39,767 nucleotides of DNA, from positions 1-39,767 of the IMG/VR virus record IMGVR_UViG_3300036778_000042. One strand, written 5' to 3'. Origin of the DNA: a virus. Its lineage: Duplodnaviria > Caudoviricetes. This document shows, piece by piece, positions 13,077-39,767 of this stretch. Numbering within the stretch: position 1 is the stretch's first letter; every line of letters starts with the position of its first letter. The notes under the pieces are model-generated. The model saw nothing but the letters and a program-made list of their open reading frames with translations, was not told the DNA's origin and did no database searches. Position numbers and translations under genes: made by a program.

Positions 13077-13274
13077 TCATCGGCTTCCCCCGCCTAAGAC
13101 CCGGATCGCCGCCTTCAGCGCCACGCGCCGCTGGCGGACGACCTCCTGCGCCTGACGCGCGCCGCGCGCGTCCTTGCTGTCCGCCGGGAACTTCTCCAGC
13201 TGGCGTTCAAGCTGGCGCTCATAGTTGGCGAGCCCGTTGATCTCGCGTTCGAGCACGATCAGCGCCTCATCCAC
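13077..13274 (-). CDS. Small coiled-coil hypothetical protein
   Basis: 65 aa from GTG 13274 with a GGGAGG RBS; overlaps the portal stop. Confidence 0.55.
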   Translation of the reverse strand: MDEALIVLEREINGLANYERQLERQLEKFPADSKDARGARQAQEVVRQRRVALKAAIRVLGGGSR

Positions 13275-15477
13275 GGCCCGGCCCTCCCGGCTGTGGCCGT
13301 CCACCTGGCGGGCCGCTCGGGGGTCCTGGCCGGGTGATCTGCGGCGACACTGGCGGTCCACCGCCGCCGGATGGGGGACCGGGGACAGGACCGGACGGCG
13401 GGGGTCCGGCGCCCCCTTGCAACGCGGCCTCCAGATCGGGCGCGGGGGCTCCTGGCGGGGGCGCGGGCGGCCCTGGCGGAGTGGTCGTGTGCATGAAGCC
13501 GAGCCCGAGCCCGATATGCTGCGCATGCACGTCCGTTACGTCGCGCAGCGCCTTCGCCTGCTTGCCCTGCGCGGTCGCTTTTTTCTCGGCGGTGTCCGCC
13601 TGCTTGTTCTCCAGTTCCGCCGCCTGCTGCGCCTGCACGACCGGGTTCGGCGTGGACATCCGCTGAACCTGCTCGTTCACCGCCTGCCCAAGCTGCGCCG
13701 CGACGCTCGCCGGGATGTCCAGATACTGGAACAGGTCGGCCAGGACGGCGGGACTGATCAGCTGCGCTTGCAGCAGCTGCGTCACCAGCGGCATCACAAT
13801 CGCCGCGACCCGCGCCTTCGTGTTCGGCGCCGCCGGGGCTTCGTCCACAACGATGTCGTACTCGTCCGACTGCATCGCCATGGCGAGCGGAACGTACTGC
13901 TGCTCACCATCGAGCACGATCCGGACCATGAAGTCGTCGGGCAGGTAGAGCCGCATCATGGTCAAGAGCAGCCGCCCTTGATTGCGCTGATACCGCCGCT
14001 TCGCGTCGAAAAAGCTGGAGAGAATGCCGTAAGCGGCTTGCTTGCGCTGCTGTTCGAGCACGCCCGCCTGCTCACGGCCGGCGAGCCCTAGAACCTCCTC
14101 GTTCACCCCGGTGCACGCCTGCACCATGTCCTTCGCGAACTGCATCAGCTGAAACAGCGCGGGTTGCACCGGCGGCGGCGCTTTCGGCTGCATCTTCGCC
14201 CCGTGCGCGCCCGACAGGGCTCCCGACTTCACCCAAGTGATCTTCTGCGTGTTCGCGAAACTCGTCTCGAACTGGCGAACGTCGGAAACCGCGTCCTCCT
14301 CCAGCATCATCCCGCCGTTCGCATTCGTCCGGACGATGTGCAGGACTTCCGAGTACAGTTTGTTGACGAACTTGTTCGGCTCGACCATCGGCTTCACTAG
14401 GCCGTAATAGGTCCCCTTGTTGCGGTCGCGCTTCGCGGTGATCGCCTGATACCGAAAATCACCTTCCGGCATCGCCTCCTTGAACAGCACTTGGCCGTCC
14501 CCGACGAACGCCCGGTAAAACACTTTCTTGGTCGATTTGACGCTGCGAAGATTAGGGTTCGCCGCCTTGGCTTGGCTGAACTCCTGCGGGTTCAACGGGG
14601 TCAGCTTGGTGATCGTCGGATCGGTCGGGTGCGGCATCGGCGCGACCTGCACCGGCTCGCGCTCCCACCACTGCCATTCGGCCACGATGACCTCAGGGTC
14701 CTCGCTCGTTCCCAGCATGCCGTGCGTGTACCGCTGGCGCGGATTGACAATCGTCACCCGCTTGCCGTCCGCGTCGCCGCCGTCAACCTCGCTCGGGTCT
14801 AGGTCCGGCTGGTCGATCTCCAGCTTGAAATCCTCGAACTCGTCCAGCGACATCGGGATTTCGCGCTTCAGATACCGCTTGTCCTCGAAACACCGCTTGC
14901 GGCTCGCCGGATCGACCTTAATCTGAAGCGGATCGACCCGCTCCTTGATAATGCTCGCGACCGGCCCCTCGACCTCGACCCGCGTTTCCGTCCAGCCAAT
15001 CCCGCAGGTCAGCGCATCCAGAAACGCGTCGGTGTCCTCCTGATCGCCGTTGCACTGATCGACGATGTAGTTCGCGCCCTGCGTCAGCACATCCGCGACG
15101 CCGGTGCTCTGCGCAGTCGTGTTCCTCGGATAATACTGAACCTGCTGGCGATCCTGAATTTCCGCCCCGTTCACCGCGTCAATCGCCGGTTCCGTCAGAT
15201 TGAAGGTGACCGGGATTTTCTCGTTTTCGGCCATGGTCTCGACTTCAGTGTCGGTCCACTGCTTGCCCGCCCGGAAGTCGAACCAATCCTTCGCCTGTTC
15301 GACCCATTCGCTCCAATGCGCCTGCAACAGCACATCCCACCGGTCGAACTTCTCCATGAGTTCGTCGTCGTCAGGGAGCGGCGGCCCTTTCGCCGTCACC
15401 GGGTTCTGCGCCGGGGTCCGCTGCGAAGCGCCGTCGTCGAACTGCGGGCCGGTTCCGGTCGGCGCAAGGTCAGTCAT
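13267..15477 (-). CDS. Portal protein (P22-like)
   Basis: 736 aa from ATG 15477; WFDFRAGKQW, YYGLVKPM, TGVNEEVLG and YDIVVDEAP motifs; Pro/Gly-rich tail. Confidence 0.9.
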   Translation of the reverse strand: MTDLAPTGTGPQFDDGASQRTPAQNPVTAKGPPLPDDDELMEKFDRWDVLLQAHWSEWVEQAKDWFDFRAGKQWTDTEVETMAENEKIPVTFNLTEPAIDAVNGAEIQDRQQVQYYPRNTTAQSTGVADVLTQGANYIVDQCNGDQEDTDAFLDALTCGIGWTETRVEVEGPVASIIKERVDPLQIKVDPASRKRCFEDKRYLKREIPMSLDEFEDFKLEIDQPDLDPSEVDGGDADGKRVTIVNPRQRYTHGMLGTSEDPEVIVAEWQWWEREPVQVAPMPHPTDPTITKLTPLNPQEFSQAKAANPNLRSVKSTKKVFYRAFVGDGQVLFKEAMPEGDFRYQAITAKRDRNKGTYYGLVKPMVEPNKFVNKLYSEVLHIVRTNANGGMMLEEDAVSDVRQFETSFANTQKITWVKSGALSGAHGAKMQPKAPPPVQPALFQLMQFAKDMVQACTGVNEEVLGLAGREQAGVLEQQRKQAAYGILSSFFDAKRRYQRNQGRLLLTMMRLYLPDDFMVRIVLDGEQQYVPLAMAMQSDEYDIVVDEAPAAPNTKARVAAIVMPLVTQLLQAQLISPAVLADLFQYLDIPASVAAQLGQAVNEQVQRMSTPNPVVQAQQAAELENKQADTAEKKATAQGKQAKALRDVTDVHAQHIGLGLGFMHTTTPPGPPAPPPGAPAPDLEAALQGGAGPPPSGPVPGPPSGGGGPPVSPQITRPGPPSGPPGGRPQPGGPGRG

Positions 15478-15776
15478 TCGACCCGGTTCCACTCCGCTAT
15501 CGCCCGCTCCATCGCCGCGTCGGCCAGTTCAAGGATCACGTCGCGATCCGCAGGCATCGCCCGCAGCAGCCAGTTCGACGGCGCCAAGCACACGCTCTCG
15601 CCGCTCGCCCGGTCGATCAGAAACCGCCCCTCGTTCTCAGCCAGCACCGCCTTGCGCGCCGCCCCGTGCACGACCAGCCAGACTTCGCCGTCCTCAACCA
15701 CGACGAACCGGTCCAGCGGGTGCGGCGGGACCTCGCCGTCCGGCGCCTCGTACCGCAGGATCACCGGCGGGCTCAC
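15474..15776 (-). CDS. Hypothetical protein
   Basis: 100 aa; GTGA/ATGA overlaps at both ends. Confidence 0.65.
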   Translation of the reverse strand: MSPPVILRYEAPDGEVPPHPLDRFVVVEDGEVWLVVHGAARKAVLAENEGRFLIDRASGESVCLAPSNWLLRAMPADRDVILELADAAMERAIAEWNRVE

Positions 15777-16174
15777 GGCTCGCCCGCCGTCAGGTTGAGG
15801 AACCGCGCGACGCGGCTCGCCGTCTCGGCCAGGGCGTACCTCGCCACAACCTCACGCCGCAGCTGGTCGTACACGTACGCGTAACCGCTGACCCCGAAGC
15901 GCGTCGGGAGCGCCCGCTTCTGAAACCTTGGACCCCGGAAAAACGGATCTACTTGCGAGGCGTTCGCAGGCTCGCGTATGGGCGGATTTTGGGTGGAAAT
16001 TTCCGGGCGGTTGCGATTGCCCCCGGTCGCATACCAGCGCGCCCGGCTGCGAACAGGCGTCGCCGTTTCGCGTTCGCGGGTTTGACGGGCGGCGCGTGGA
16101 AGGTGGTTGCGATTAACAGGCCCCCCCTCGGCCCGGCCATTGGAGGACCAAGGGTCCCAGGGGTTGAGTAACAT
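15773..16174 (-). CDS. Hypothetical protein (start uncertain)
   Basis: Fills the gap on the operon strand; only the C-terminal ~40 aa (YAYVYDQLRREVVARY...) look like a folded protein. Confidence 0.4.
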   Translation of the reverse strand: MLLNPWDPWSSNGRAEGGPVNRNHLPRAARQTRERETATPVRSRARWYATGGNRNRPEISTQNPPIREPANASQVDPFFRGPRFQKRALPTRFGVSGYAYVYDQLRREVVARYALAETASRVARFLNLTAGEP

Positions 16175-16179
16175 TGCTA

Positions 16180-16473
16180 TTACTCCCGGCTGGATTGCGC
16201 CAGCGTGTCCAGTCGCTCGGCTGCGGTGCGCACATGGTCATGATCGGCGACGCCTAGCAGCAGCTGCGAAACCCCTTGTGCATAAGGGCCAAGGTCAAGG
16301 CGCAGGGCGAAGCCGGGCGAGCGATCCACCCGGAAGGACCAGACGCGCCCGCGACTGTCCGTCAGCTGGCCATCGCCCTGACGGTCCCACGCCTCGCGGG
16401 CTGCGGCTGCGATCCTGTCCAGTTCGTCAGCTGGTAGCGCCAGGGGTTCGGGAGGGTCGGATTTCTTCGTCAT
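16180..16473 (-). CDS. Hypothetical protein, paralogue of 11407-11739
   Basis: 97 aa from ATG 16473, directly downstream of promoter motif copy 3. Confidence 0.75.
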   Translation of the reverse strand: MTKKSDPPEPLALPADELDRIAAAAREAWDRQGDGQLTDSRGRVWSFRVDRSPGFALRLDLGPYAQGVSQLLLGVADHDHVRTAAERLDTLAQSSRE

Positions 16474-16486
16474 GCCTCGCGCCTGA

Positions 16487-16509
16487 AACGCGTTCGTTTC
16501 GAGCGTCAA
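16487..16509 (-). promoter_or_regulatory. Putative late promoter, copy 3 (TTGAC-GCTCG-AAACGAACGCGTT), heading the portal-scaffold block
   Basis: Conserved motif, 13 nt before ATG 16473. Confidence 0.75.
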
Positions 16510-16886
16510 GGCGAAGGCGGTTTAGGGGATTTCTTAGGGTAAAGCGGCGGCGTAGGGGCGAAACCGCCTTACACAGAAGGGATTGCATTCTCCCACGGGA
16601 GGAAAAAGCCGTGTCGAAATCGCGCCGCCAAGTGCGTTGCCACGCCAGCCCGCCGCGGGTCGCGGACCGTCGAAAACCGGTTGCAGACCGGAAAAAATCG
16701 CGCGCCTGAAACAACGGCGCTAGCGGGTCGCTGCGGCTGGTCCACGCAAGCTTTTCGCCCGCCAGACGGCGTGCAGCTGCGACGCATCCCGAACCGCCGC
16801 AGCCGGTCAATTCCACTAAGGCCAGGATCGGGCGTCGATGTGCGGCGAGCCCGCGAAAATGCCGCAGCCCTACGCGTACGCGGGGA

Positions 16887-16915
16887 TTGCAACGTACGTC
16901 TATTAGACGTATCAA
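16887..16915 (+). promoter_or_regulatory. Sigma70-type promoter with palindromic operator for the plus-strand cassette
   Basis: TTGCAA-17 nt-TATCAA; a perfect inverted repeat TACGTCTA-T-TAGACGTA (16895-16911) covers the spacer and the start of the -10 box. Confidence 0.7.
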
Positions 16916-16969
16916 GAGGTCAAGCCGGTGGTGACGCCGGAGACACAAAAACCCTTACGGAACAAAGCA

Positions 16970-17182
16970 ATGCAACACATCGAAAAGTCCGGTTTCCGCG
17001 CTGGCGAATATGTCGGCTACTGCTCGGGCCGGGTCTTCAAAATCACCCGCGTGCTGAACGGCAAAAAGACCATCGGCTGGCAAGCCCGCGCGGCGCTCGG
17101 CTCGGTTCGCGAGAACGCGCCGAACGGCTTCCGCGCCGCGACCCTGAAGGGTCTGAACGACCAGCTGGCCAACGCCGCCTAA
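16970..17182 (+). CDS. Small hypothetical protein, first gene of the inserted cassette
   Basis: 70 aa (MQHIEKSGFRAGEYVGY...), strongly C/G-ending codons. Confidence 0.7.
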   Translation: MQHIEKSGFRAGEYVGYCSGRVFKITRVLNGKKTIGWQARAALGSVRENAPNGFRAATLKGLNDQLANAA

Positions 17183-17211
17183 CCCTCATCCACGCACACA
17201 AGGAAATCATC

Positions 17212-17787
17212 ATGTCCCGTTCGTTCTTCGTCCGCGAAAGCTTCATTCCCACCGGCGCCGTGAAGGTCGCCGACAAGGCGTCCAGCGCCGTCGTCTACAT
17301 CCGCACCGACAAGCAAGGCCGCGCCTGCGCGGTCGGCTTCCAGGGCAAGGCGATCAAGCCTGCGTTCAACTGCTGGTATGGGAGCGAGAAACGCCGCGAG
17401 GCGCACGTTCGCGAGTTTTTCGAGAAGGTCGCGCGCGTCGAAAACTACAAGGCGGAACGCGCCGCCGAGAAGAAAGCGAAGTTGGCGCGTCCGCACAAGC
17501 TCCAGCTTGGCCACATCATGGTTGCGACGTGGGGATACGATCAGACGAACGTCGATTTCTATCAGGTCACCGGACTGCGCGGCGCCCGCACGGTCGAACT
17601 GCGCAAGATCGGGCGCGTGTCTGAGGAAACCGCGTCGATGCAGGGGACCTGCACGCCGCGCGCCGACGCCTTCACGGGCGAAGCCTTCACCCGGCGGATC
17701 GACGAAGACAACGCCGTAAAGCTGAACAGTTACAGCTATGCCCGCTTGTGGGACGGCAAGGTCAAGGCGTGGACCGCCTACGCCTAA
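17212..17787 (+). CDS. Conserved phage/MGE hypothetical protein (WGYDQTNVDFYQV motif)
   Basis: 191 aa from ATG 17212 with an AAGGA RBS; the listed upstream extension to 16681 is not credible. Confidence 0.8.
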   Translation: MSRSFFVRESFIPTGAVKVADKASSAVVYIRTDKQGRACAVGFQGKAIKPAFNCWYGSEKRREAHVREFFEKVARVENYKAERAAEKKAKLARPHKLQLGHIMVATWGYDQTNVDFYQVTGLRGARTVELRKIGRVSEETASMQGTCTPRADAFTGEAFTRRIDEDNAVKLNSYSYARLWDGKVKAWTAYA

Positions 17788-17890
17788 ACGCTGTATCCAT
17801 CGCGCCTGTAGCGCCCAAAGCCCGGAGGCGGAAACGCTTGGCCGGGCTGAAGGCGTGCGGATCGTCCGCACACATGGAGAACTAACCGAA

Positions 17891-18103
17891 ATGGCTTTGC
17901 CGACCCCTTCCACCCCGATTGCGAAATCGCTGCATACCCTGACCGTGCTTCAGCAGGTCGCCAAGATCATGCGCGAGCTTCGCGGACTGAACGACCCGGA
18001 AGCGGCGATGACCGCCGCGATGGAAGCCTTAGGGCTTTCCGGGCGTCCTGATCCGTATGGGCTGGAAGCCCGCGCGCTGGTCCTGATGGGAAAGGGCGCC
18101 TGA
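17891..18103 (+). CDS. Small hypothetical protein
   Basis: 70 aa from ATG 17891 with a GGAGA RBS; TGATG coupling to the next gene. Confidence 0.7.
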   Translation: MALPTPSTPIAKSLHTLTVLQQVAKIMRELRGLNDPEAAMTAAMEALGLSGRPDPYGLEARALVLMGKGA

Positions 18104-18393
18104 TGTCTGACGAACCCTCAAACCGCGTCTGGATCGAACTCGAACGCCCGGACCTGAACGAAGACCGCCAGCGGATCGGCGACGAACGCGCCGCGCTGCT
18201 GACGAACCTGCTGAAGCGTCTGGCGGCGCCGGATGACGTAGCTAGTTCGCCCGTGTGCCGATACCGCGAGCACGATCACAAAGGCCGCTTTGTCGGGGTC
18301 TATGAACTCGTCTACGGCCCGATGCGGGTCGAAACGCTCAACGATCACGGAAGCTGGTTCAACCTCGATTACTTTGGCCGCGAAGGAGCCTGA
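18103..18393 (+). CDS. Small acidic hypothetical protein
   Basis: 96 aa; translationally coupled to the previous gene. Confidence 0.7.
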   Translation: MSDEPSNRVWIELERPDLNEDRQRIGDERAALLTNLLKRLAAPDDVASSPVCRYREHDHKGRFVGVYELVYGPMRVETLNDHGSWFNLDYFGREGA

Positions 18394-18396
18394 ACG

Positions 18397-18753
18397 ATGA
18401 CCGGCGCAGAACTGGAGGCCGCCCGCGCGGTCTTGGGCGTGGCCGCGTCCGATCTTGGCCGCGCGTTGCAGCTGGAGGGGCGCGACCCTGGCCAGCAGGT
18501 GCGGCGATGGGAAACCGGCGCCGCCCGCATCCCCGGACCCGTCGCGGTCGCGGTCGCCTTCATGGTCGAACTTAAAACCGGCGTCCTGCGCCGGAAAGGC
18601 TCGCCCCCGGCCGCCAGGAGCCCGCAGGCGGGCGCGGACGGGTCCGCCGCTATCCTGGCCCAGCCGACCGGGAGCGCGCCTGTAGACCCCCCCGCAGTTT
18701 GTAGCGAAGCCGTAGCGTGGAGCCCGCCAGGGAAAGCGAGGCGCCGGGGTTAG
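18397..18753 (+). CDS. XRE/Cro-type HTH regulator closing the cassette (Aca-like position)
   Basis: MTGAELEAARAVLGVAASDLGRALQL...QVRRWETGAARIPGPVAVAV; AAGGAG RBS. Confidence 0.8.
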   Translation: MTGAELEAARAVLGVAASDLGRALQLEGRDPGQQVRRWETGAARIPGPVAVAVAFMVELKTGVLRRKGSPPAARSPQAGADGSAAILAQPTGSAPVDPPAVCSEAVAWSPPGKARRRG

Positions 18754-18765
18754 GGCGAGGGGCTG

Positions 18766-20346
18766 CTATCTGCCCCAAATATCGTTGAGCAGCCCTTTGA
18801 AGCGGCGGCGCCGGTAACGGTCGCCGCCGTCTTCGTGTCCGGACGCCTTCACCGGCGCCGCGAAGGTCAAGACGACCGCATCCCATCCATCGGGAGAACG
18901 CAGCCCGCGCTTGCGGATGTCCTCCTTGCTTTCGAGCAACAGGAACTGACGAGCGTCGTACTTGTAGCCGGGCGCGACCGCATCGGCGTGTAGCGCGTCG
19001 TCGTCGGGGATGTCGGCGCCGCCGTCGTCCTCCAGCCAGTCTTTCGACGCCATCCACATTTCGGCTCTGCGGTTGCGCGGACCCGGTATGAGTTCCCCAC
19101 GCGCGCCGGTGCGGGTCGGCTGATGCGGGGCGCCGCCGAAGTTCACCCCCTCGCACACCTTGGACCAGGGCTCGCCCCAATCGTTCAGCAGATCGACGAC
19201 GCCCGCGCCCTGGCCGCCAACGTCGATGAACACCTTAGCCGGGCGGTCGCGTTCGACGATCTGGCGCACCCAATTGGCGCCCTGCACCGTGTCCAGCTTG
19301 TGCTTGCGTTCGACCTTTTCGACCTTGCGCCCGCGTCGCCACGCGATGGCGAAACCGTCATCCCCGAACCGCGCCGGGTCTACGCCGAGGATCAGCGAAC
19401 CGACGCCTTCGCAGGTCGCCTTGCGCGCCTGCAAAACCAGCTGCGAGGAAATGAACGCGTCGTGTCCGGTGGCTTGGAAAGCCTCCGCAGCGGTCGCCGG
19501 GTACTCCTGGCGGAACAGGTTCGGGTCTTTCAGTTCCTGAAGCTTGGACCGTCGCCAAACCAGCTGCGGAAGGTTGAGCCCGTACAGCCGCCCGTATTCC
19601 TCCTCCTCCTCGTTGATCTCGAACCCGATAGGCGGCGGGCGCTGGTAATCGAGGCTCCAGAACCAGGGGACGAAGATCGCCTGATAGTCGCCGTCTCCCG
19701 CCTCAGCCTGTTGCCAGCGTTCGTGAAACTCGCCGCCGATACCGTTGGCGGTGCTTTCCATGACGATCTCGGAACCAGGCAGATCGGGAACGGTCTGCAC
19801 GACGCCGGCGAAGTGATCGGCGGCGTTGGGCCAGAAGGCGACTTCGGACCCGTGGAACAGGTTCGTTGACTTGGACCGCCCGACCGCCTTCGACCCGGCG
19901 GTCCCGACCGAATAGCCGCTATCGAGGGTCGGAAAATACAGTTCCTTCGCGTTCGCGGCGCCGGTGTGCGGGCGGATTTCGGGCGGAAGGTGGCGGTGGA
20001 ACCGCTCCACCATGGCGAACAGGGTCGCGGTCGCATCCTGCTCATGCGTCAGGATGTAGACCTGCGTTCCGCGCCAGAAGGCGGCCCGGTGATAGAACCG
20101 GGCGCCGATGTACGTGGACAAGCCTTCCTGGCGGGCTTTGAGGACCAGGGCGCGCACCTTGCCGGTGCGCTGGCGCTGCGCCTCTAGCTTGCCGTGGACG
20201 TATTCCTGAACCGCGTTGAGCCGCAGCGGGGCGAGGTCCCCGGCTTTCGTCCGAATGCGCAGACAGCGCGCCGCGTAATGCGGCAAGTCGTCTTTCAGGT
20301 GCTGCAAAAGCCCTTTGGCTTCGTCGCTCAGCTGGACGACCGCCAC
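18766..20346 (-). CDS. terL: Terminase large subunit
   Basis: ATPase motifs LKARQEGLST, SEVAFW and EST; nuclease motifs GVDPARFGDD and SPDGWDA. Confidence 0.93.
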   Translation of the reverse strand: MAVVQLSDEAKGLLQHLKDDLPHYAARCLRIRTKAGDLAPLRLNAVQEYVHGKLEAQRQRTGKVRALVLKARQEGLSTYIGARFYHRAAFWRGTQVYILTHEQDATATLFAMVERFHRHLPPEIRPHTGAANAKELYFPTLDSGYSVGTAGSKAVGRSKSTNLFHGSEVAFWPNAADHFAGVVQTVPDLPGSEIVMESTANGIGGEFHERWQQAEAGDGDYQAIFVPWFWSLDYQRPPPIGFEINEEEEEYGRLYGLNLPQLVWRRSKLQELKDPNLFRQEYPATAAEAFQATGHDAFISSQLVLQARKATCEGVGSLILGVDPARFGDDGFAIAWRRGRKVEKVERKHKLDTVQGANWVRQIVERDRPAKVFIDVGGQGAGVVDLLNDWGEPWSKVCEGVNFGGAPHQPTRTGARGELIPGPRNRRAEMWMASKDWLEDDGGADIPDDDALHADAVAPGYKYDARQFLLLESKEDIRKRGLRSPDGWDAVVLTFAAPVKASGHEDGGDRYRRRRFKGLLNDIWGR

Positions 20347-21082: not shown

Positions 21083-21535
21083 TCACGGCGCGGACCGGAA
21101 CATCGTCACGTTGCCAGGGTCCACGGGTGGCCAGGGCTCGCCGCGCAAGATCGTCTGATGGCCAAGACAGTACGGGCCGCCGGGCTCGACAGGCAGGCAA
21201 CAGCTGAGCGTTTCACCGCTGACCGCTGTCACCGGCCAAGCGCATTCGCGCGGGCCGCGCTGAAGCCAGGGGCGCGGCGTGGAGCCCGCGAGCGGCGGCG
21301 GGGGTGGTGGTAGCGCCCGCGACGGGACGGGCGCCCATGAGAGCGCCAGCCCGCGTTCGTGGTTGCCGATGGCGACGGCCAGCGGCGACCTTGCCGGAAG
21401 CCCGAGCCGCATCCGCTTGCCGCGCACCGCCGAGGCCGACACGCCGACCAGCTGGCCGATCTCGGCGCTGGCCGCGCCGCTCGCCCATGCGCTCGCCAAG
21501 ACTAAAGCTTGTTCACCGGTCCAGCTGCTGTTCAC
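21083..21535 (-). CDS. gcrA: GcrA-family transcriptional activator (phage homologue)
   Basis: 150 aa from GTG 21535: N-terminal SWT.EQ...L...W..G..SAEIG..VGVS..AV.GK..RLGL HTH and C-terminal CAWPV...CC...PGGPYCLGH, the two GcrA domains. Confidence 0.85.
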   Translation of the reverse strand: MNSSWTGEQALVLASAWASGAASAEIGQLVGVSASAVRGKRMRLGLPARSPLAVAIGNHERGLALSWAPVPSRALPPPPPPLAGSTPRPWLQRGPRECAWPVTAVSGETLSCCLPVEPGGPYCLGHQTILRGEPWPPVDPGNVTMFRSAP

Positions 21536-22209
21536 GCGAAATCCTCCCGCCAGTCGTTCAGCTGCGCCGCCACGACGACGGGCGCCGAAATTTCGGGCTC
21601 GGGATCGGCTGGCGATTTTTTGGGTTCGGGATCGCCGAACGGGATGTCGTCGCCGTCCTCGACCCACTCAGCCGACGCGCCGAGTTTGTTGCCGATCTGC
21701 GGCCCTTGGAATTTCGCGCCGGTCCAGGTCGCCTTCGCCATCTGGAGCGCGCCCGGAAGCGCGTCGATCAGCGCGCCGACCTCCTTGGCCGTGTAGACGC
21801 TGACGAACCGTCCTTCGGCGATCACCTTGCTCGCCGCCGCGTCGTCCTCGACCAGGGCGGCGACCGATCCGTCCGCTAGCCAGACCTCCCACACCCACGG
21901 CGCAATCGACCGGTGACCGGCTTGCTCGGCCCATGCGTCCAGCGCCCACCACGCCCGCGTCATGGCCGCCGCCTTGTCCTCGACCATGGTCAGCAGGTCG
22001 CGGGTCATCACCTGCGCTTCCCACGCCGCCTGATAGGCGAAGCTCCACGTCGCCTGCTGGCGTCGGAAGCGGGCGAACAGCGCCGCGTCGCCGAGCGCCG
22101 CGAGCCGTTCGAGCCGCCCCATCCCCCACTTGCTTTCCACCTGGCGGGCCGCCGCCTCGACCGTTTCGCCGAACGCCGTCAGCACGGCGGCGTCTTCTGG
22201 CCTAACCAT
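21532..22209 (-). CDS. Conserved hypothetical protein of the replication module
   Basis: 225 aa; VESKWGMGRLERL motif; internal DDIPF; overlaps at both ends. Confidence 0.7.
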   Translation of the reverse strand: MVRPEDAAVLTAFGETVEAAARQVESKWGMGRLERLAALGDAALFARFRRQQATWSFAYQAAWEAQVMTRDLLTMVEDKAAAMTRAWWALDAWAEQAGHRSIAPWVWEVWLADGSVAALVEDDAAASKVIAEGRFVSVYTAKEVGALIDALPGALQMAKATWTGAKFQGPQIGNKLGASAEWVEDGDDIPFGDPEPKKSPADPEPEISAPVVVAAQLNDWREDFA

Positions 22210-27937: not shown

Positions 27938-28153
27938 ATGCTTGTCGTTGAGGACCGCCCGTTTTACGTGGTCTGGAACATGCGCGGGAAAAAGCCACGC
28001 GTCCGCCACGCGAGCGCGACCCTGGCCGTGGCGGAAGCCACCCGGTTAGCGCGGAAGGAAGCTGGCGAAACCTTCGTCGTGCTCGCCGCCCTGGCCAGCT
28101 TCCGCGACGAACCGGACGGGGGGGTCCTTTGTGGGTCTACGTTCCCCCGCTGA
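27938..28153 (+). CDS. Conserved phage hypothetical protein
   Basis: FYVVWN..G..P...H.S...A..EA.RLA....GETFVVL pattern; GGAG RBS. Confidence 0.75.
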   Translation: MLVVEDRPFYVVWNMRGKKPRVRHASATLAVAEATRLARKEAGETFVVLAALASFRDEPDGGVLCGSTFPR

Positions 28154-29319
28154 CGACCTCACCGCCATCAGCCTTTGCACCGGCGGCGGCGCCCTCGACC
28201 TTGCGCTTGAACTCGCAATTCCGGCGCTTCGTCCGATCCTCTACGTGGAGAGGGAAGCCTTCGCGTGCGCGACTTTGGTCCAAGCGATGGAAGCGGCTTA
28301 TCTGGCTGCGGCGCCTCTATGGAGCGATGCCCGAACCGTCCCTGGCCGACGCTTTCGTGGATGCGTGGACCTCGTATTTGGCGGTATCCCGTGCCAGCCG
28401 CATAGCGAGGCCGGACCCGCGCGCGGCGCCGACGACGACCGCGACCTTTGGGCCGCCGCCAGGCGGGTTGTCGTCCAGTCCGGCGCATGGGCCGTGTTCA
28501 TCGAAAACGTCGGCGGAATGCTGCACACCGGCGGCGCCGAACGGGTTCACCGAGAGTTACGGCGATTGGGTTTCAAGGTTGCGGGCGGACTTTTCACGGC
28601 GTCAGAAGTCGGCGCCTCTCACGAACGGGAACGGCTGTTCATTCTCGCCGTCAACGACGCGCTGGCCGACGCCCACGACGCGGGACGAGCGCAGCGTCTA
28701 CGCCTCGCCCGAGACGCATCAGAAGAACGCCCGACCCCTGAGCGAGACGGCGGGACGATGGGCGACCCCGAAGGCGAGCCAAGCCGGACCCGACTTCGCC
28801 AAGCTCGCGCGGTCGTCAACGGGCGTGGCGCTGGCGGCGCAGGCGAACCTTTGGGCGACCCCGCTAGCCTCCAGCGGCGACAAGGGCGGCCCGGCGCAGG
28901 CGTTCGGCCAGGGCGGCGGGACGCCGCTAGCAGCGCAGGCGAGCCGATGGGCGACGCCTACGGTGGCGGATACCGAGGGGGGTCGGGCGAACCGGTCGGG
29001 GGATCGCAGCGGCGAGCTTCTGATCCGTGGACAGGCCCTTCAGCTGCATTCCCGCCAGGACCCGATGACCTCGCCGGATGGCGCGACACCCTTGCGATCT
29101 GGCCTCATCTTGAACCCGTTGTTCGTCGAAACCCTGATGGGTTGGCCGCCAGGGCTGAGCGGGCTCGCCATTGGCCATCACACGCCCGCGCCCTGCGCAT
29201 GGACCGGCTGCGCCTGCTCGGCGGTGGCGTGGTTCCGCTGGAGGCGGCTTTCGCGTTCCGCACTCTCGCGTCTGAGCTTGCCCGAACCTCTACCGGTGCA
29301 GCTGGACTTGTTCGGATGA
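28129..29319 (+). CDS. Overlapping alternative-frame MTase partner (TRD-like W(P/A)TP repeats plus motif IX-like segment)
   Basis: Second frame open for 396 codons; four WxTP repeats at 28663, 28759, 28852 and 28948, and LNPLFVETLMGWP. The true start is unknown and may be internal. Confidence 0.65.
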   Translation: MWVYVPPLTTSPPSAFAPAAAPSTLRLNSQFRRFVRSSTWRGKPSRARLWSKRWKRLIWLRRLYGAMPEPSLADAFVDAWTSYLAVSRASRIARPDPRAAPTTTATFGPPPGGLSSSPAHGPCSSKTSAECCTPAAPNGFTESYGDWVSRLRADFSRRQKSAPLTNGNGCSFSPSTTRWPTPTTRDERSVYASPETHQKNARPLSETAGRWATPKASQAGPDFAKLARSSTGVALAAQANLWATPLASSGDKGGPAQAFGQGGGTPLAAQASRWATPTVADTEGGRANRSGDRSGELLIRGQALQLHSRQDPMTSPDGATPLRSGLILNPLFVETLMGWPPGLSGLAIGHHTPAPCAWTGCACSAVAWFRWRRLSRSALSRLSLPEPLPVQLDLFG

Positions 29320-29327
29320 GCGGCTGA
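28131..29327 (+). CDS. DNA (cytosine-5) methyltransferase, catalytic frame (motifs I-VIII and X)
   Basis: SLCTGGG (I), GGIPCQ (IV), ENV (VI), HERERLF (VIII), DRLRLLGGGVVP (X). Confidence 0.88.
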   Translation: MGLRSPADDLTAISLCTGGGALDLALELAIPALRPILYVEREAFACATLVQAMEAAYLAAAPLWSDARTVPGRRFRGCVDLVFGGIPCQPHSEAGPARGADDDRDLWAAARRVVVQSGAWAVFIENVGGMLHTGGAERVHRELRRLGFKVAGGLFTASEVGASHERERLFILAVNDALADAHDAGRAQRLRLARDASEERPTPERDGGTMGDPEGEPSRTRLRQARAVVNGRGAGGAGEPLGDPASLQRRQGRPGAGVRPGRRDAASSAGEPMGDAYGGGYRGGSGEPVGGSQRRASDPWTGPSAAFPPGPDDLAGWRDTLAIWPHLEPVVRRNPDGLAARAERARHWPSHARALRMDRLRLLGGGVVPLEAAFAFRTLASELARTSTGAAGLVRMSG

Positions 29328-34075: not shown

Positions 34076-34516
34076 ATGGTCTCCACCGATTTGATCGAAA
34101 AGCACTGCCCGGTTTGCTGCATCCATTACGCCGCGCCGCGCGCCATGTTCGACATGCGAAACGCGGACGAAGGCCCGTGGTACTGCCCGAACGGCCATCG
34201 GCTGGTCTTCACCGAAAGCGCCTTCAGCAAGGCGAAAACCGAGCGCGACCAGCTGCGCCGCGAGCGCGATCAACTGAAACAGAATGAGGCGTATTTGGAA
34301 CAGACCCTGGCCGACACGGCGCGCGAGCGAACGGCGCTCAAAGGTCAGGTCACCAAGCTGCACAAGCGGATCGGCGCCGGGGTCTGCCCGTGCTGCACCC
34401 GCAGCTTCACCGATCTGAAACGACACATGGCCAGCAAACACGCTGGCTTTCGTGAGGATGCTCAGTCGCCACCCCTGACAAGGAAAATAACCAGTTTGAA
34501 GGAGGTTCGACCGTGA
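34076..34516 (+). CDS. Zinc-finger/coiled-coil protein
   Basis: CPVC...YCPNGH, a coiled coil, then CPCC...F..L..HM..KH (C2H2-like). Confidence 0.75.
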   Translation: MVSTDLIEKHCPVCCIHYAAPRAMFDMRNADEGPWYCPNGHRLVFTESAFSKAKTERDQLRRERDQLKQNEAYLEQTLADTARERTALKGQVTKLHKRIGAGVCPCCTRSFTDLKRHMASKHAGFREDAQSPPLTRKITSLKEVRP

Positions 34517-34767
34517 AGCCGCCGTTCACTGATGGGGCTGGAAAAGAAACGCTGACCGTGGCGGAAGCTTGCCGCTATCTCGGGATCGGCAAGACGAAAT
34601 TCTATGAATTGGTCAAGGCCAAGGAGTTTGCGACGTTCCCGCTGGCGGGCCGCACGGTCGTCAGGCTGGAGGCCCTGCGTGCGGCCCTGGCGAAGGCTGA
34701 ACAGTCGCCGCACCCCTCTAGGCGACAGCGCGGGGGAAAGCCCGCACAACCCCCTCCGGACGACTGA
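34513..34767 (+). CDS. xis: Excisionase-like HTH protein
   Basis: LTVAEACRYLGIGKTKFYELV...GRTVV; converges on the integrase gene. Confidence 0.8.
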   Translation: MKPPFTDGAGKETLTVAEACRYLGIGKTKFYELVKAKEFATFPLAGRTVVRLEALRAALAKAEQSPHPSRRQRGGKPAQPPPDD

Positions 34768-36079
34768 CGAACGCCGCCCAAGCGTCCATGACGGTGCGCC
34801 GAACCTCGACGTTGGTTTCGTGGATGTAGGCCCGGCGGGCGGCGTCGCCGACGACGTGCGCCATGCACAGTTCGAGGGTGGTTTCGTCGTACAGCGGTAG
34901 CTTCGTGCGCGGGTTGGTCTGCATCCCGGCCCACGTCCGGAAGGTGCTGCGCAGCCCGTGCACCGACACTTGCCGCTGCGTCCCGTCCGAACGGGTGATC
35001 ACGTGCGGGTAAAGCCTGCGCAGGAAGTCCCGCAGGTCTTCCGCCGTCAGCGTCCCCTTGTTCGGGCAGGGGAACAGCAGACCCGACTTCGGGGCGCCGC
35101 CAGCGGGCGTGACCAGGGCGAGGATTTCCATGTGGCGCTTAGTCAGCGGGACGCGATGGCCGCCCACATCCTTGATCTTCATCTTGGCCGCCGGGATCGT
35201 CCAAACCTGATGATCAAGATCAAGTTCAGTCCAGTCCGCCGTCAGAGCGGTCCCGACCCGTGCGACAGATAGCAGGGTCCATTCGATGCAGAGCGCGCGA
35301 ATGTCCGGCTTGGCGCGCAGGTCGGCCACGACGCCGCCGATTTCGCGCCAGCCGATTGCGGCGTGGGACACTTCGCGCTTCTCCACCGGCGTGATCAGGC
35401 CGCGCGCCCGGCCCGCGAAGTTCACCGGGTTGATCCAGTCGTCAGGCAGGGGACGGCCCTTGATCGGCGCCGCGCACCACTCGAACAGCGCCCGCAGCTG
35501 ACCCTCGACCTTGCGGCGCTGTTCGCTGCACGTCGTCCGCGCCTCGATAGCCTTCAGGGCGGCGGCGATGTCTTCGCGGGTGATGTCGCGCGGCGCCAGG
35601 GCGCCGACGCCCGCCGTCAGCTTCGGCGCGACTTGGTTCGCCCAATACCGGCGCTTTTTCGCCTGTTCGAGTTCATCCCGGTGCTTCGGTCCGATGTCCT
35701 CAGCCGCCAGCTGCGCCCACTCGAACAGCGACCGCTTGTCCTGGCTGGTCGTCGCTACGGCCAGGGCCGCCTTGCGCCGGTCGCGCTGGACCTTGGGGTC
35801 AAGGTTCTTCGCCAGCCACGCTTCGCATTCCTCGCGCAGGGCGCGGGCCGCAATCAGGTCGATCTTGTGCGCCGAACCGAGGTTCACCGATTTGTTCTCG
35901 CCGCCGAACCGGTAAACGTACATCCACGACCGCTGCGTCTTCTCGCCGACGATCAGGTTCAACCCGGCGCCGTCGTGCACCTTGCCGGTCGCCTCGACCC
36001 GTTCGACGCCGCCGCGCTTTTTGGTGATCTTGGGATTGTCGCCGAGCAGCGAAAGGAAGGTCTTGCCGTGAATGCCCAC
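34718..36079 (-). CDS. int: Tyrosine integrase with N-terminal arm-binding domain (P4-like)
   Basis: HDGAGLNL...RSW.Y.Y...LGS arm domain; catalytic R (ARVG), K (KMK), HGLR, H (MAH) and Y (RRAY); AGGAG RBS. Confidence 0.93.
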   Translation of the reverse strand: MGIHGKTFLSLLGDNPKITKKRGGVERVEATGKVHDGAGLNLIVGEKTQRSWMYVYRFGGENKSVNLGSAHKIDLIAARALREECEAWLAKNLDPKVQRDRRKAALAVATTSQDKRSLFEWAQLAAEDIGPKHRDELEQAKKRRYWANQVAPKLTAGVGALAPRDITREDIAAALKAIEARTTCSEQRRKVEGQLRALFEWCAAPIKGRPLPDDWINPVNFAGRARGLITPVEKREVSHAAIGWREIGGVVADLRAKPDIRALCIEWTLLSVARVGTALTADWTELDLDHQVWTIPAAKMKIKDVGGHRVPLTKRHMEILALVTPAGGAPKSGLLFPCPNKGTLTAEDLRDFLRRLYPHVITRSDGTQRQVSVHGLRSTFRTWAGMQTNPRTKLPLYDETTLELCMAHVVGDAARRAYIHETNVEVRRTVMDAWAAFVSRPEGVVRAFPRAVA

Positions 36080-39250: not shown

Positions 39251-39767
39251 CTAGTTCCCGAACAACCCGAGCGGATCGGCTTGCTGGCGGGACGCCGCGC
39301 TTTTCGCCTGTAGCGCCGCATTCGCCCCGGCCCGGCCCGACAGCTGCGGCGCCTGTCCCTGCGCCTGCGCTTGCTGCTGCTGTTGTTGCCACGCCGCGAC
39401 CGCATCGCCGTAACCGCCCTGGCCGCTGTGAACGTACTTCTGCGCGAACTGCAACAGGGACAGGTTGTCGGCGGCTTCCTTCTGCATCCGCGCCGCAATC
39501 GCCTGATTGGTCGTTCCGAAGTTGGCGACGTTCGGGAACGCCTTCTGCCAGCCTGCGGCTTCAAAGCCCCGGATCGGGCCGGACCCGGTAGGCCGGTTGA
39601 GCGCCCATGTGGATTGGTTGATCGCGTCCATGTTTTGGACCTGCGCGGCCAAGTCCGGCTTGGTCATCGTGGTCCACAACCGATCAAGGCTCGGGATCGT
39701 CCCGACGTGGCCGACCAGCGGCAAATCGAGTTGCGTGTCCGCGTAGGACGGCCCGGTCTGGGTGCTA
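39251..39767 (-). CDS. 3' part of the junction-spanning ejection-type gene that starts at 404
   Basis: In frame with the ORF from ATG 404 once the 135-bp overlap is collapsed. Confidence 0.75.
   Translation of the reverse strand, partial: STQTGPSYADTQLDLPLVGHVGTIPSLDRLWTTMTKPDLAAQVQNMDAINQSTWALNRPTGSGPIRGFEAAGWQKAFPNVANFGTTNQAIAARMQKEAADNLSLLQFAQKYVHSGQGGYGDAVAAWQQQQQQAQAQGQAPQLSGRAGANAALQAKSAASRQQADPLGLFGN
39633..39767 (+). repeat. Terminal direct repeat, right copy
   Basis: Matches 1-135 with one mismatch. Confidence 0.97.

What the first reader, a model, noticed from the sequence alone, without database searches (positions are those of the whole stretch)
16887..18753. Acr-Aca-like cassette inserted antisense between terL and portal
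Seen: sigma70-type promoter (TTGCAA-17-TATCAA) with a perfect 8-1-8 palindrome in its spacer, four small unknown genes (70, 191, 70, 96 aa) and a terminal HTH gene, all opposite to the surrounding structural genes. Established: anti-CRISPR and other anti-defence operons often have this layout, with an Aca HTH repressing via an inverted repeat in the promoter. Inference: a burst-expressed, self-silencing operon of new anti-defence or host-takeover proteins. None is recognisable to me as a known Acr.
Basis: partly seen in the sequence, partly recalled or inferred. Interest (0 to 1): 0.8.

Follow-up and report, generated by a model that had tools for sequence, protein, structure and literature searches.

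The report
Self-silencing phage cassette with recoded repressor
A phage carries, backwards between its DNA-packaging genes, a swappable block of small genes whose repressor likely shuts off its own promoter (repressor and palindrome change in step across related phages) and whose unknown genes likely help the phage past bacterial defences.

Summary
13 of the 14 closest terminase relatives carry the same antisense HTH gene right behind terL, and 0 of the other 66 do. The cargo turns over almost completely. A TAC-N11-GTA dyad sits in the cassette promoter of 20 phages. Its bases 5 and 6 change with HTH residues 33 and 37 (Arg33 with C5 in 16 of 16 half-sites, Gln33 with T5 in 18 of 20, Arg37 with C6 in 20 of 22). 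Four phages found after the rule was fixed fit it, but tree-corrected pairs are too few for significance. These residues align with Aca2's base-reading Arg30 and Tyr34, and the best PDB hits are Aca3 and Aca2. No Acr was found. Verdict: an Aca-like autorepressed accessory operon of a temperate phage, probably counter-defence, and not a demonstrated acr-aca locus.

The parts
16887..16915 (+). Predicted sigma-70-type promoter (-35 TTGCAA, 17 nt, -10 TATCAA)
   Evidence: Sequence. The same -35/dyad spacing recurs in relatives' cassettes. Fails the strict consensus scan.
16895..16911 (.). Operator-like dyad, half-site TACGTC, 5-nt centre; predicted HTH binding site
   Evidence: The TAC-N11-GTA frame is kept in 20 phages; bases 5 and 6 covary with HTH residues 33 and 37.
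16970..17182 (+). Cargo ORF1, 70 aa, no family
   Evidence: No Pfam or PHROG hit, best PDB sequence hit E 1.3. In 1 of 14 complete cassettes. No large homologue search was run for it.
17212..17787 (+). Cargo ORF2, 191 aa, uncharacterised WGY[DE]QTN family shared by phages and conjugative plasmids; two domains, the C-terminal one predicted SH3/Tudor-like
   Evidence: 94 homologues; about 1,200 viral stretches hold the motif; 2,801 plasmid records; model pLDDT 95; best fold Z 6.7 and 6.0, not decisive.
17792..17866 (+). Repeated intergenic structured element (hairpin core 17819-17848 with a 1x2 internal loop) between ORF2 and ORF3
   Evidence: 34 copies aligned; 8 of 10 pairs show changes on both sides; no Rfam match; model hit E 7e-13 (the window copy was in the training set).
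17891..18103 (+). Cargo ORF3, 70 aa, predicted three-helix protein; the most conserved cargo gene
   Evidence: In 11 of 14 complete cassettes; model pLDDT 91; no fold match with Z of 5 or more.
18103..18393 (+). Cargo ORF4, 96 aa, PHROG 12905 (unknown function)
   Evidence: E 1.6e-9. In 2 of 14 complete cassettes.
18397..18753 (+). Aca2/Aca3-like HTH repressor (residues 1-59), variable linker, conserved Arg-rich C-terminal tail
   Evidence: PDB profile hits Aca3 E 0.008 and Aca2 E 0.04; dimer model 0.52 vs best control 0.00; tail in 31 of 34 top homologues, with varied codons.
18766..20346 (-). Large terminase (flank, convergent with the HTH gene)
   Evidence: PHROG 2, E 1.7e-34.
13267..15492 (-). 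P22-like portal (flank)
   Evidence: Pfam PF16510, E 1.5e-86.

Best explanation
This is a variable accessory cassette, fixed antisense behind terL in one phage clade, whose Aca-like HTH likely binds the promoter palindrome as a dimer and represses its own operon, so that the cargo would be made in a short burst on entry and likely counters host defences. Shown by sequence comparison: the position, the cargo turnover, the operator-residue covariation and the conserved hairpin. Inferred: (1) host RNA polymerase fires the promoter in a cell that has no repressor yet; (2) the HTH builds up and blocks the -35/-10 spacer, with residue 33 reading base pair 5 and residue 37 base pair 6 (about 0.9); (3) the operon stays off later and in the lysogen, the phage having an integrase and excisionase (about 0.75); (4) at least part of the cargo is counter-defence, more likely anti-restriction or anti-abortive than anti-CRISPR (about 0.65); (5) the repeated hairpin acts on the mRNA between genes, as a processing, stabilising or protein-binding site, and may also serve as a joint for gene swapping (open).
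For: HTH behind terL in 13 of the 14 closest terL loci (the 14th ends 2 nt after terL) and 0 of the other 66. 20 HTH/dyad pairs: Arg33-C5 16 of 16 half-sites, Gln33-T5 18 of 20, Glu33-G5 2 of 2, Leu33-A5 2 of 2; Arg37-C6 20 of 22, other residues-C6 1 of 18; per-phage Fisher p 8e-6 and 1.2e-4; crossed controls p 0.17 and 0.065. Four phages found after the rule was noted fit base 5 in 6 of 6 predicted half-sites and base 6 in 7 of 8. The pairings match textbook Arg-G, Gln-A, Glu-C and hydrophobic-T read-out (recalled). Residues 33 and 37 align with Aca2 Arg30 and Tyr34, which make base-specific contacts (PMC8633003 passages). Dimer model: score 0.52, best control 0.00, contacts agree 100% between runs, pLDDT 91; that mark was reached by 20 of 30 solved pairs and 1 of 23 single chains, and a pass may come from likeness to solved dimers. 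The same slot holds ArdA in L174 (Pfam E 4.7e-25), DUF932 and RadC in L089, and a weak ArdA hit in L099 (E 5e-4, below cut-off). ORF2 matches 2,801 plasmid records, 2,581 of them typed conjugative. Its C-terminal half stands alone, co-oriented with klcA and ssb, in an IncL/M plasmid and about 1 kb before the relaxase operon in IncX1. Integrase and excisionase.
Against: No binding, expression or defence data exist. Tree-corrected tests are not significant: 2 independent pairs on supported branches of the terL tree (4 on all branches) and 1 on the HTH tree (6 on all branches), none going the wrong way. L174 and L185 have the HTH but no dyad was found in about 6 kb upstream. L091 breaks the residue-37 rule, and one half-site each of L176 and L183 breaks the residue-33 rule. 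The Aca hits are weak (E 0.008-0.5). Only four relatives' cargo ORFs hit Pfam families linked with conflict (one below cut-off) among the 71 and 26 ORFs scanned, and none of the window's own four did. The background share of conjugative plasmids was not computed and oriT was not located. The -10 box is non-consensus.
Confidence: 0.65

Rival explanations
1. A lysogenic-conversion (moron) operon. The HTH keeps expression at a steady low level in the prophage, and the cargo protects the lysogen against other phages or changes host physiology instead of disarming defences at entry.
For: The phage is temperate. The cassette has its own promoter and faces against the late genes, as morons often do (recalled). 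Several cassettes end with small hydrophobic, membrane-like ORFs.
Against: No cargo matched a named defence-system family in Pfam (PADLOC was not searched). ArdA and plasmid homologues beside klcA/ssb point to entry functions. An operator filling the whole spacer fits strong shut-off.
Confidence: 0.14
2. An autorepressed early operon of host-takeover or neutral accessory genes with no role against defence systems.
For: The window's four cargo proteins have no functional match by sequence or fold. Toxic takeover genes would also need shut-off.
Against: ArdA, RadC and DUF932 occupy the same slot in relatives. ORF2 is shared with conjugative plasmids, which do not take over or kill the host.
Confidence: 0.1
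3. A true acr-aca locus in which one or more cargo proteins inhibit CRISPR-Cas.
For: The nearest solved sequences to the HTH are Aca3 and Aca2, and the layout matches published acr-aca operons (PMC9410906 passages).
Against: No Acr match among the window's or relatives' cargo in Pfam, PHROGs or PDB sequences. AcrIF rows for ORF2 reach only Z 4.3-4.5, within background. The paper notes that most aca-like genes lack acr neighbours. No dedicated Acr library was available.
Confidence: 0.08
4. The dyad is bound by another factor (a host regulator or another phage protein), and the covariation with the HTH reflects shared descent of whole cassettes.
For: Tree-corrected pairs are too few for significance. 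Two HTH loci lack a dyad.
Against: Residue 33 changes at least 5 times on the terL tree and 8 times on the weakly supported HTH tree, with the base following. The crossed residue-base controls are not significant. The held-out phages fit. A host factor would not need different operators in close relatives.
Confidence: 0.03

Closest known systems
acr-aca operons with Aca2 (phage ZF40) and Aca3
   Same: Small HTH at or near the end of an operon of small genes; inverted repeat across the -35/-10 spacer; residues aligned with Aca2 Arg30/Tyr34 are the ones that covary with the operator; extra operator copies at internal promoters in some relatives, as reported for Aca regulons (PMC13551039 section 22).
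   Different: No acr gene found. No DUF1870 or other Pfam hit for the window's HTH. The model dimerises through residues 46-56 rather than Aca2's C-terminal domain. It has an Arg-rich tail. The operator differs from phage to phage within one clade, whereas the Aca1 phage operators are described as highly conserved.
Aca1/Aca2 RNA hairpin targets (PMC13551039 sections 18, 19, 22)
   Same: Lower stem, small internal loop, covarying upper stem; the paper also reports motifs between genes within operons.
   Different: The hairpin here is longer, sits 55-62 nt after the upstream stop in 28 of 36 copies, does not change with the operator, and was not detected in several cassettes that have the HTH. 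Binding is untested.
Leading-region anti-defence islands of conjugative plasmids (PMC11541004 passages)
   Same: Shared cargo types (ArdA; the ORF2 family beside klcA and ssb), many uncharacterised small genes, predicted expression on entry.
   Different: Here the block is in a phage packaging module and appears to be controlled by a double-stranded promoter and repressor, not by single-strand promoters.

Membership tests
acr-aca operon | At least one anti-CRISPR gene in the operon | tested here: inconclusive
   No Acr match in Pfam, PHROGs or PDB sequences for window or relatives' cargo. No dedicated Acr library was available, and new Acrs would be missed.
acr-aca operon | Co-encoded HTH regulator related to Aca proteins | tested here: met
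   5 of 7 PDB hits at E 1 or less are Aca3 or Aca2, best E 0.008; PHROG regulator E 3e-4. The similarity is weak.
acr-aca operon | Inverted repeat within the core promoter | tested here: met
acr-aca operon | Regulator binds the repeat and represses the promoter | not testable with these tools
   Indirect support only: covariation and dimer model.
acr-aca operon | Cargo inhibits CRISPR-Cas | not testable with these tools
   Needs in vivo assays.
Aca2 family (DUF1870) | DUF1870 domain with the C-terminal dimerisation extension | tested here: not met
   No Pfam hit at E 0.01 for the window's HTH. PDB alignment to Aca2 covers residues 1-54 at most, and what follows is a variable linker.
Known Rfam RNA families | Match of the intergenic hairpin to an Rfam model | tested here: not met
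   0 matches at gathering score in the window. In three relatives' loci at E 1 or less, one unrelated chance-level hit. Motifs not curated in Rfam 15 are not covered.
Leading-region anti-defence gene (for ORF2) | Plasmid homologues lie in the first-transferred region, oriented towards oriT | tested here: inconclusive
   Gene order fits in the IncL/M and IncX1 records viewed and is unclear in IncI2. 3 of the 2,801 records were examined for this, plus two rhizobial plasmids. oriT was not located.

The most novel reading that the evidence does not exclude
A second, immunity-like specificity system for counter-defence genes. Related temperate phages keep re-coding one Aca-like repressor and its operator through two residues, so that a resident prophage's repressor cannot silence an incoming relative's entry burst. 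The same protein, through its HTH or Arg-rich tail, also controls each cargo gene at a repeated new RNA hairpin that doubles as a joint for swapping genes. ORF2 is a new counter-defence family shared with the entry regions of major conjugative plasmids.
Probability: 0.2. Interest if true: 0.85.

Novelty: new variant of a known kind. Interest (0 to 1): 0.62.

Why it matters
It gives a bounded set of candidate counter-defence genes (about 90 ORFs from relatives' cassettes were scanned, nearly all without a family) marked by a regulator, an operator and an RNA element, none of which had a family match in the libraries searched. The natural two-residue code between HTH and operator makes sharp predictions and offers a panel of possibly orthogonal small repressors. 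It also makes testable whether phages diversify Aca-type operators to avoid being silenced by resident prophages. ORF2 links phage entry cassettes to an uncharacterised gene on thousands of conjugative plasmids.

Tried and rejected
Strict promoter scan: 0 hits. Single-sequence viral scan with ORF2: nothing; the alignment worked. tblastn of the HTH against cultured phages: no match. The first HTH alignment could not be used on metagenomes, so the one metagenome scan used ORF3. The genome scan gave one phage-like contig in a MAG and one chance hit, so no host name; the alphaproteobacterial host is inferred from a GcrA domain and distant portal and integrase hits. Fold searches for ORF2 and ORF3 gave no clear match, which does not show new folds. 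Atlas TPR hits for ORF3 share few features and were rejected. The ORF2 family does not travel with this HTH: one weak HTH hit in 80 viral loci. A divergent promoter explaining the dyad's symmetry was checked by eye in the window and not found. The idea that the Arg tail is a DNA-level constraint from terL was rejected because codons and distance vary. 8 of the 10 hairpin-pattern contigs outside the clade were not supported by the model. Earlier scan findings: nothing. Paper searches for the ORF2 motif or accessions, for operator cross-repression among Aca proteins, for terL-portal anti-defence regions and for repeated phage hairpins listed no paper whose title or abstract opening describes this system. 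Most subscription papers are not covered and no supplements were read; the family tables of PMC11541004 and PMC13551039 may list ORF2, this HTH or the hairpin. PADLOC and NCBIfam were not searched.

Full report
Setting. The window is a complete phage genome: its first 100 bases recur at 39632. It has a P22-like portal, an Sf6-like small terminase, a GcrA-domain protein and a primase-polymerase, and a tyrosine integrase with an excisionase, so it is probably temperate. No cultured phage is close (portal 34% identity or less). An alphaproteobacterial host is an inference. The one full holder among sequencing runs is a soil metagenome that may be the source of this DNA.

Observation. The -10 box is non-consensus, so the strict scan misses it, and six dyads of similar length exist in the window. 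The -35-plus-dyad pattern occurs once in the window and twice in 1.48 Mb of terL loci outside the clade.

A clade-wide slot. Of the best 80 of 153 terL loci, 13 of the top 14 carry the HTH antisense, 305-726 nt past terL; the 14th contig ends there. None of the other 66 carries it. The terL-portal gap is 3.0-6.0 kb in the nine relatives with both genes, against about 1.1 kb in L103-L105. Among 14 complete cassettes, four of them found through the HTH, ORF3 is in 11, ORF4 in 2, and ORF1 and ORF2 in the window only. ORF2 is also in the split cassette of L004.

Operator and repressor change together. Relatives' cassette promoters keep a TAC-N11-GTA dyad 7-9 nt behind a TT(G/T) in most cases. Over 20 phages, one site each, HTH residue 33 goes with half-site base 5 (Arg-C 16 of 16, Gln-T 18 of 20, Glu-G 2 of 2, Leu-A 2 of 2), and residue 37 goes with base 6 (Arg-C 20 of 22, other residues-C 1 of 18). 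Per-phage Fisher p values are 8e-6 and 1.2e-4; the crossed controls give 0.17 and 0.065. The rule was written down before the last scan. The four new phages, three without terL or portal similarity in the locus, fit base 5 in 6 of 6 predicted half-sites and base 6 in 7 of 8. I set aside three weaker 4-of-6 dyads there (one in L328, two in L332). Left out of the count: HTH loci on contigs too short upstream (L097, L100, L171) and L174 and L185, where no dyad was found. The Fisher values ignore kinship. Independent contrasts are 2 (terL tree) and 1 (HTH tree without the five recognition residues) on supported branches, none in the wrong direction but not significant. The HTH profile's best PDB hits are Aca3 (E 0.008) and Aca2 (E 0.04). 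In that alignment residues 33 and 37 fall on Aca2 Arg30 and Tyr34, which contact bases in the Aca2-DNA crystal (PMC8633003, passages). A homodimer model passes with score 0.52 against a best control of 0.00, 100% contact agreement and pLDDT 91; 20 of 30 solved pairs and 1 of 23 single chains reach that mark, and likeness to solved dimers may explain a pass. An Arg-rich tail ends 31 of 34 top homologues, with varied codons; its role is unknown.

Cargo. None of the window's four proteins has a named family. In relatives the slot holds ArdA (L174, E 4.7e-25), DUF932 and RadC (L089), and a sub-threshold ArdA hit (L099); most other ORFs scanned have no Pfam family. ORF2 belongs to a large unnamed family: 94 homologues, about 1,200 viral stretches with its motif, and 2,801 plasmid records of which 2,581 are typed conjugative. 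It is full-length in rhizobial plasmids. Its C-terminal half is a free gene of about 110 aa in IncL/M, IncX1 and IncI2 plasmids, in IncL/M co-oriented with klcA and ssb next to the long ORFs I read as the mob operon. Leading regions are reported to be enriched in anti-defence and uncharacterised genes (PMC11541004, passages). Its model is confident, but fold matches are at background level (SH3/Tudor-like barrel, Z 6.0). ORF3 is a predicted three-helix protein without a fold match that also occurs in unrelated phages beside methyltransferase and integrase genes.

Between ORF2 and ORF3 lies a structured element that recurs up to four times per cassette in relatives. Its hairpin ends 55-62 nt after the upstream stop in 28 of 36 copies and mostly 35-56 nt before the next start. 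In 34 aligned copies, 8 of 10 pairs change on both sides and 94% of cells pair, against 75% in shuffles (0 of 500 reach it) and at most 52% when slid; the copies are related, so this is not a probability. One pair alternates G-U and A-U, which favours the cassette strand. Rfam has no match. A model of it, run on 140 sources (1.44 Mb), hit only clade cassettes (window, L095, L004) plus L301 and L303, and missed L094, L096, L100 and L174. It may be an RNA target of the HTH, as shown for Aca1 and Aca2 (PMC13551039, sections 18, 19, 21-23 read), a processing or attenuation site (similar hairpins end in T runs in L316 and L320), or a recombination joint. These are not resolved.

Mechanism and verdict. 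Most likely the promoter fires on entry into a cell without repressor, the cargo is made briefly, and the HTH dimer then occupies the spacer and keeps the block silent, including in the prophage. The regulatory step is well supported by comparison. Timing and cargo function are inferred. It works like an acr-aca operon but cannot be filed as one without an Acr, and the HTH is not a DUF1870 Aca2. The new elements are the rapidly re-coded repressor-operator pair, the repeated hairpin, the conserved tail and the fixed slot behind terL. Other papers seen as passages only: PMC12658196, PMC9410906, PMC12365149, PMC12672017. No supplements were read, and these could list the families described here.

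Noticed in passing
window 16920-16935 (+): Short GC-rich hairpin just after the predicted start site; similar hairpins follow several relatives' promoters but are not conserved in sequence.
   Followed up: partly
window 16870-16882: A second small self-complementary stretch just upstream of the -35 box; not seen in relatives' promoters.
   Followed up: partly
window 15474-16509 (-): Three small unknown genes between cassette promoter and portal; homologues of 16180-16509 and 15474-15776 recur in many clade relatives, so they look like core genes.
   Followed up: partly
window 28131-29327 (+): C5 cytosine methyltransferase whose Pfam match covers only residues 11-179, with a long overlapping ORF in another frame (28327-29319).
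   Followed up: no
window 34513-36079: Excisionase and convergent Arm-type tyrosine integrase; attP not located.
   Followed up: partly
window 21083-21667 (-): Phage-encoded GcrA-domain regulator upstream of the terminase genes.
   Followed up: no
L209:5384-5572 and L303 (cassette strand 1063-1272): Cassettes with the same hairpin element but a different small HTH-like gene, suggesting regulator replacement.
   Followed up: partly
L185:5473-6660: DNA polymerase III beta-clamp homologue in front of a related HTH gene in an unrelated phage contig.
   Followed up: no
L301:772-962: Two copies of the hairpin element in tandem in a contig outside the clade.
   Followed up: no
L215:2638-4058: Two related HTH genes in one ORF3-containing cassette.
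   Followed up: no
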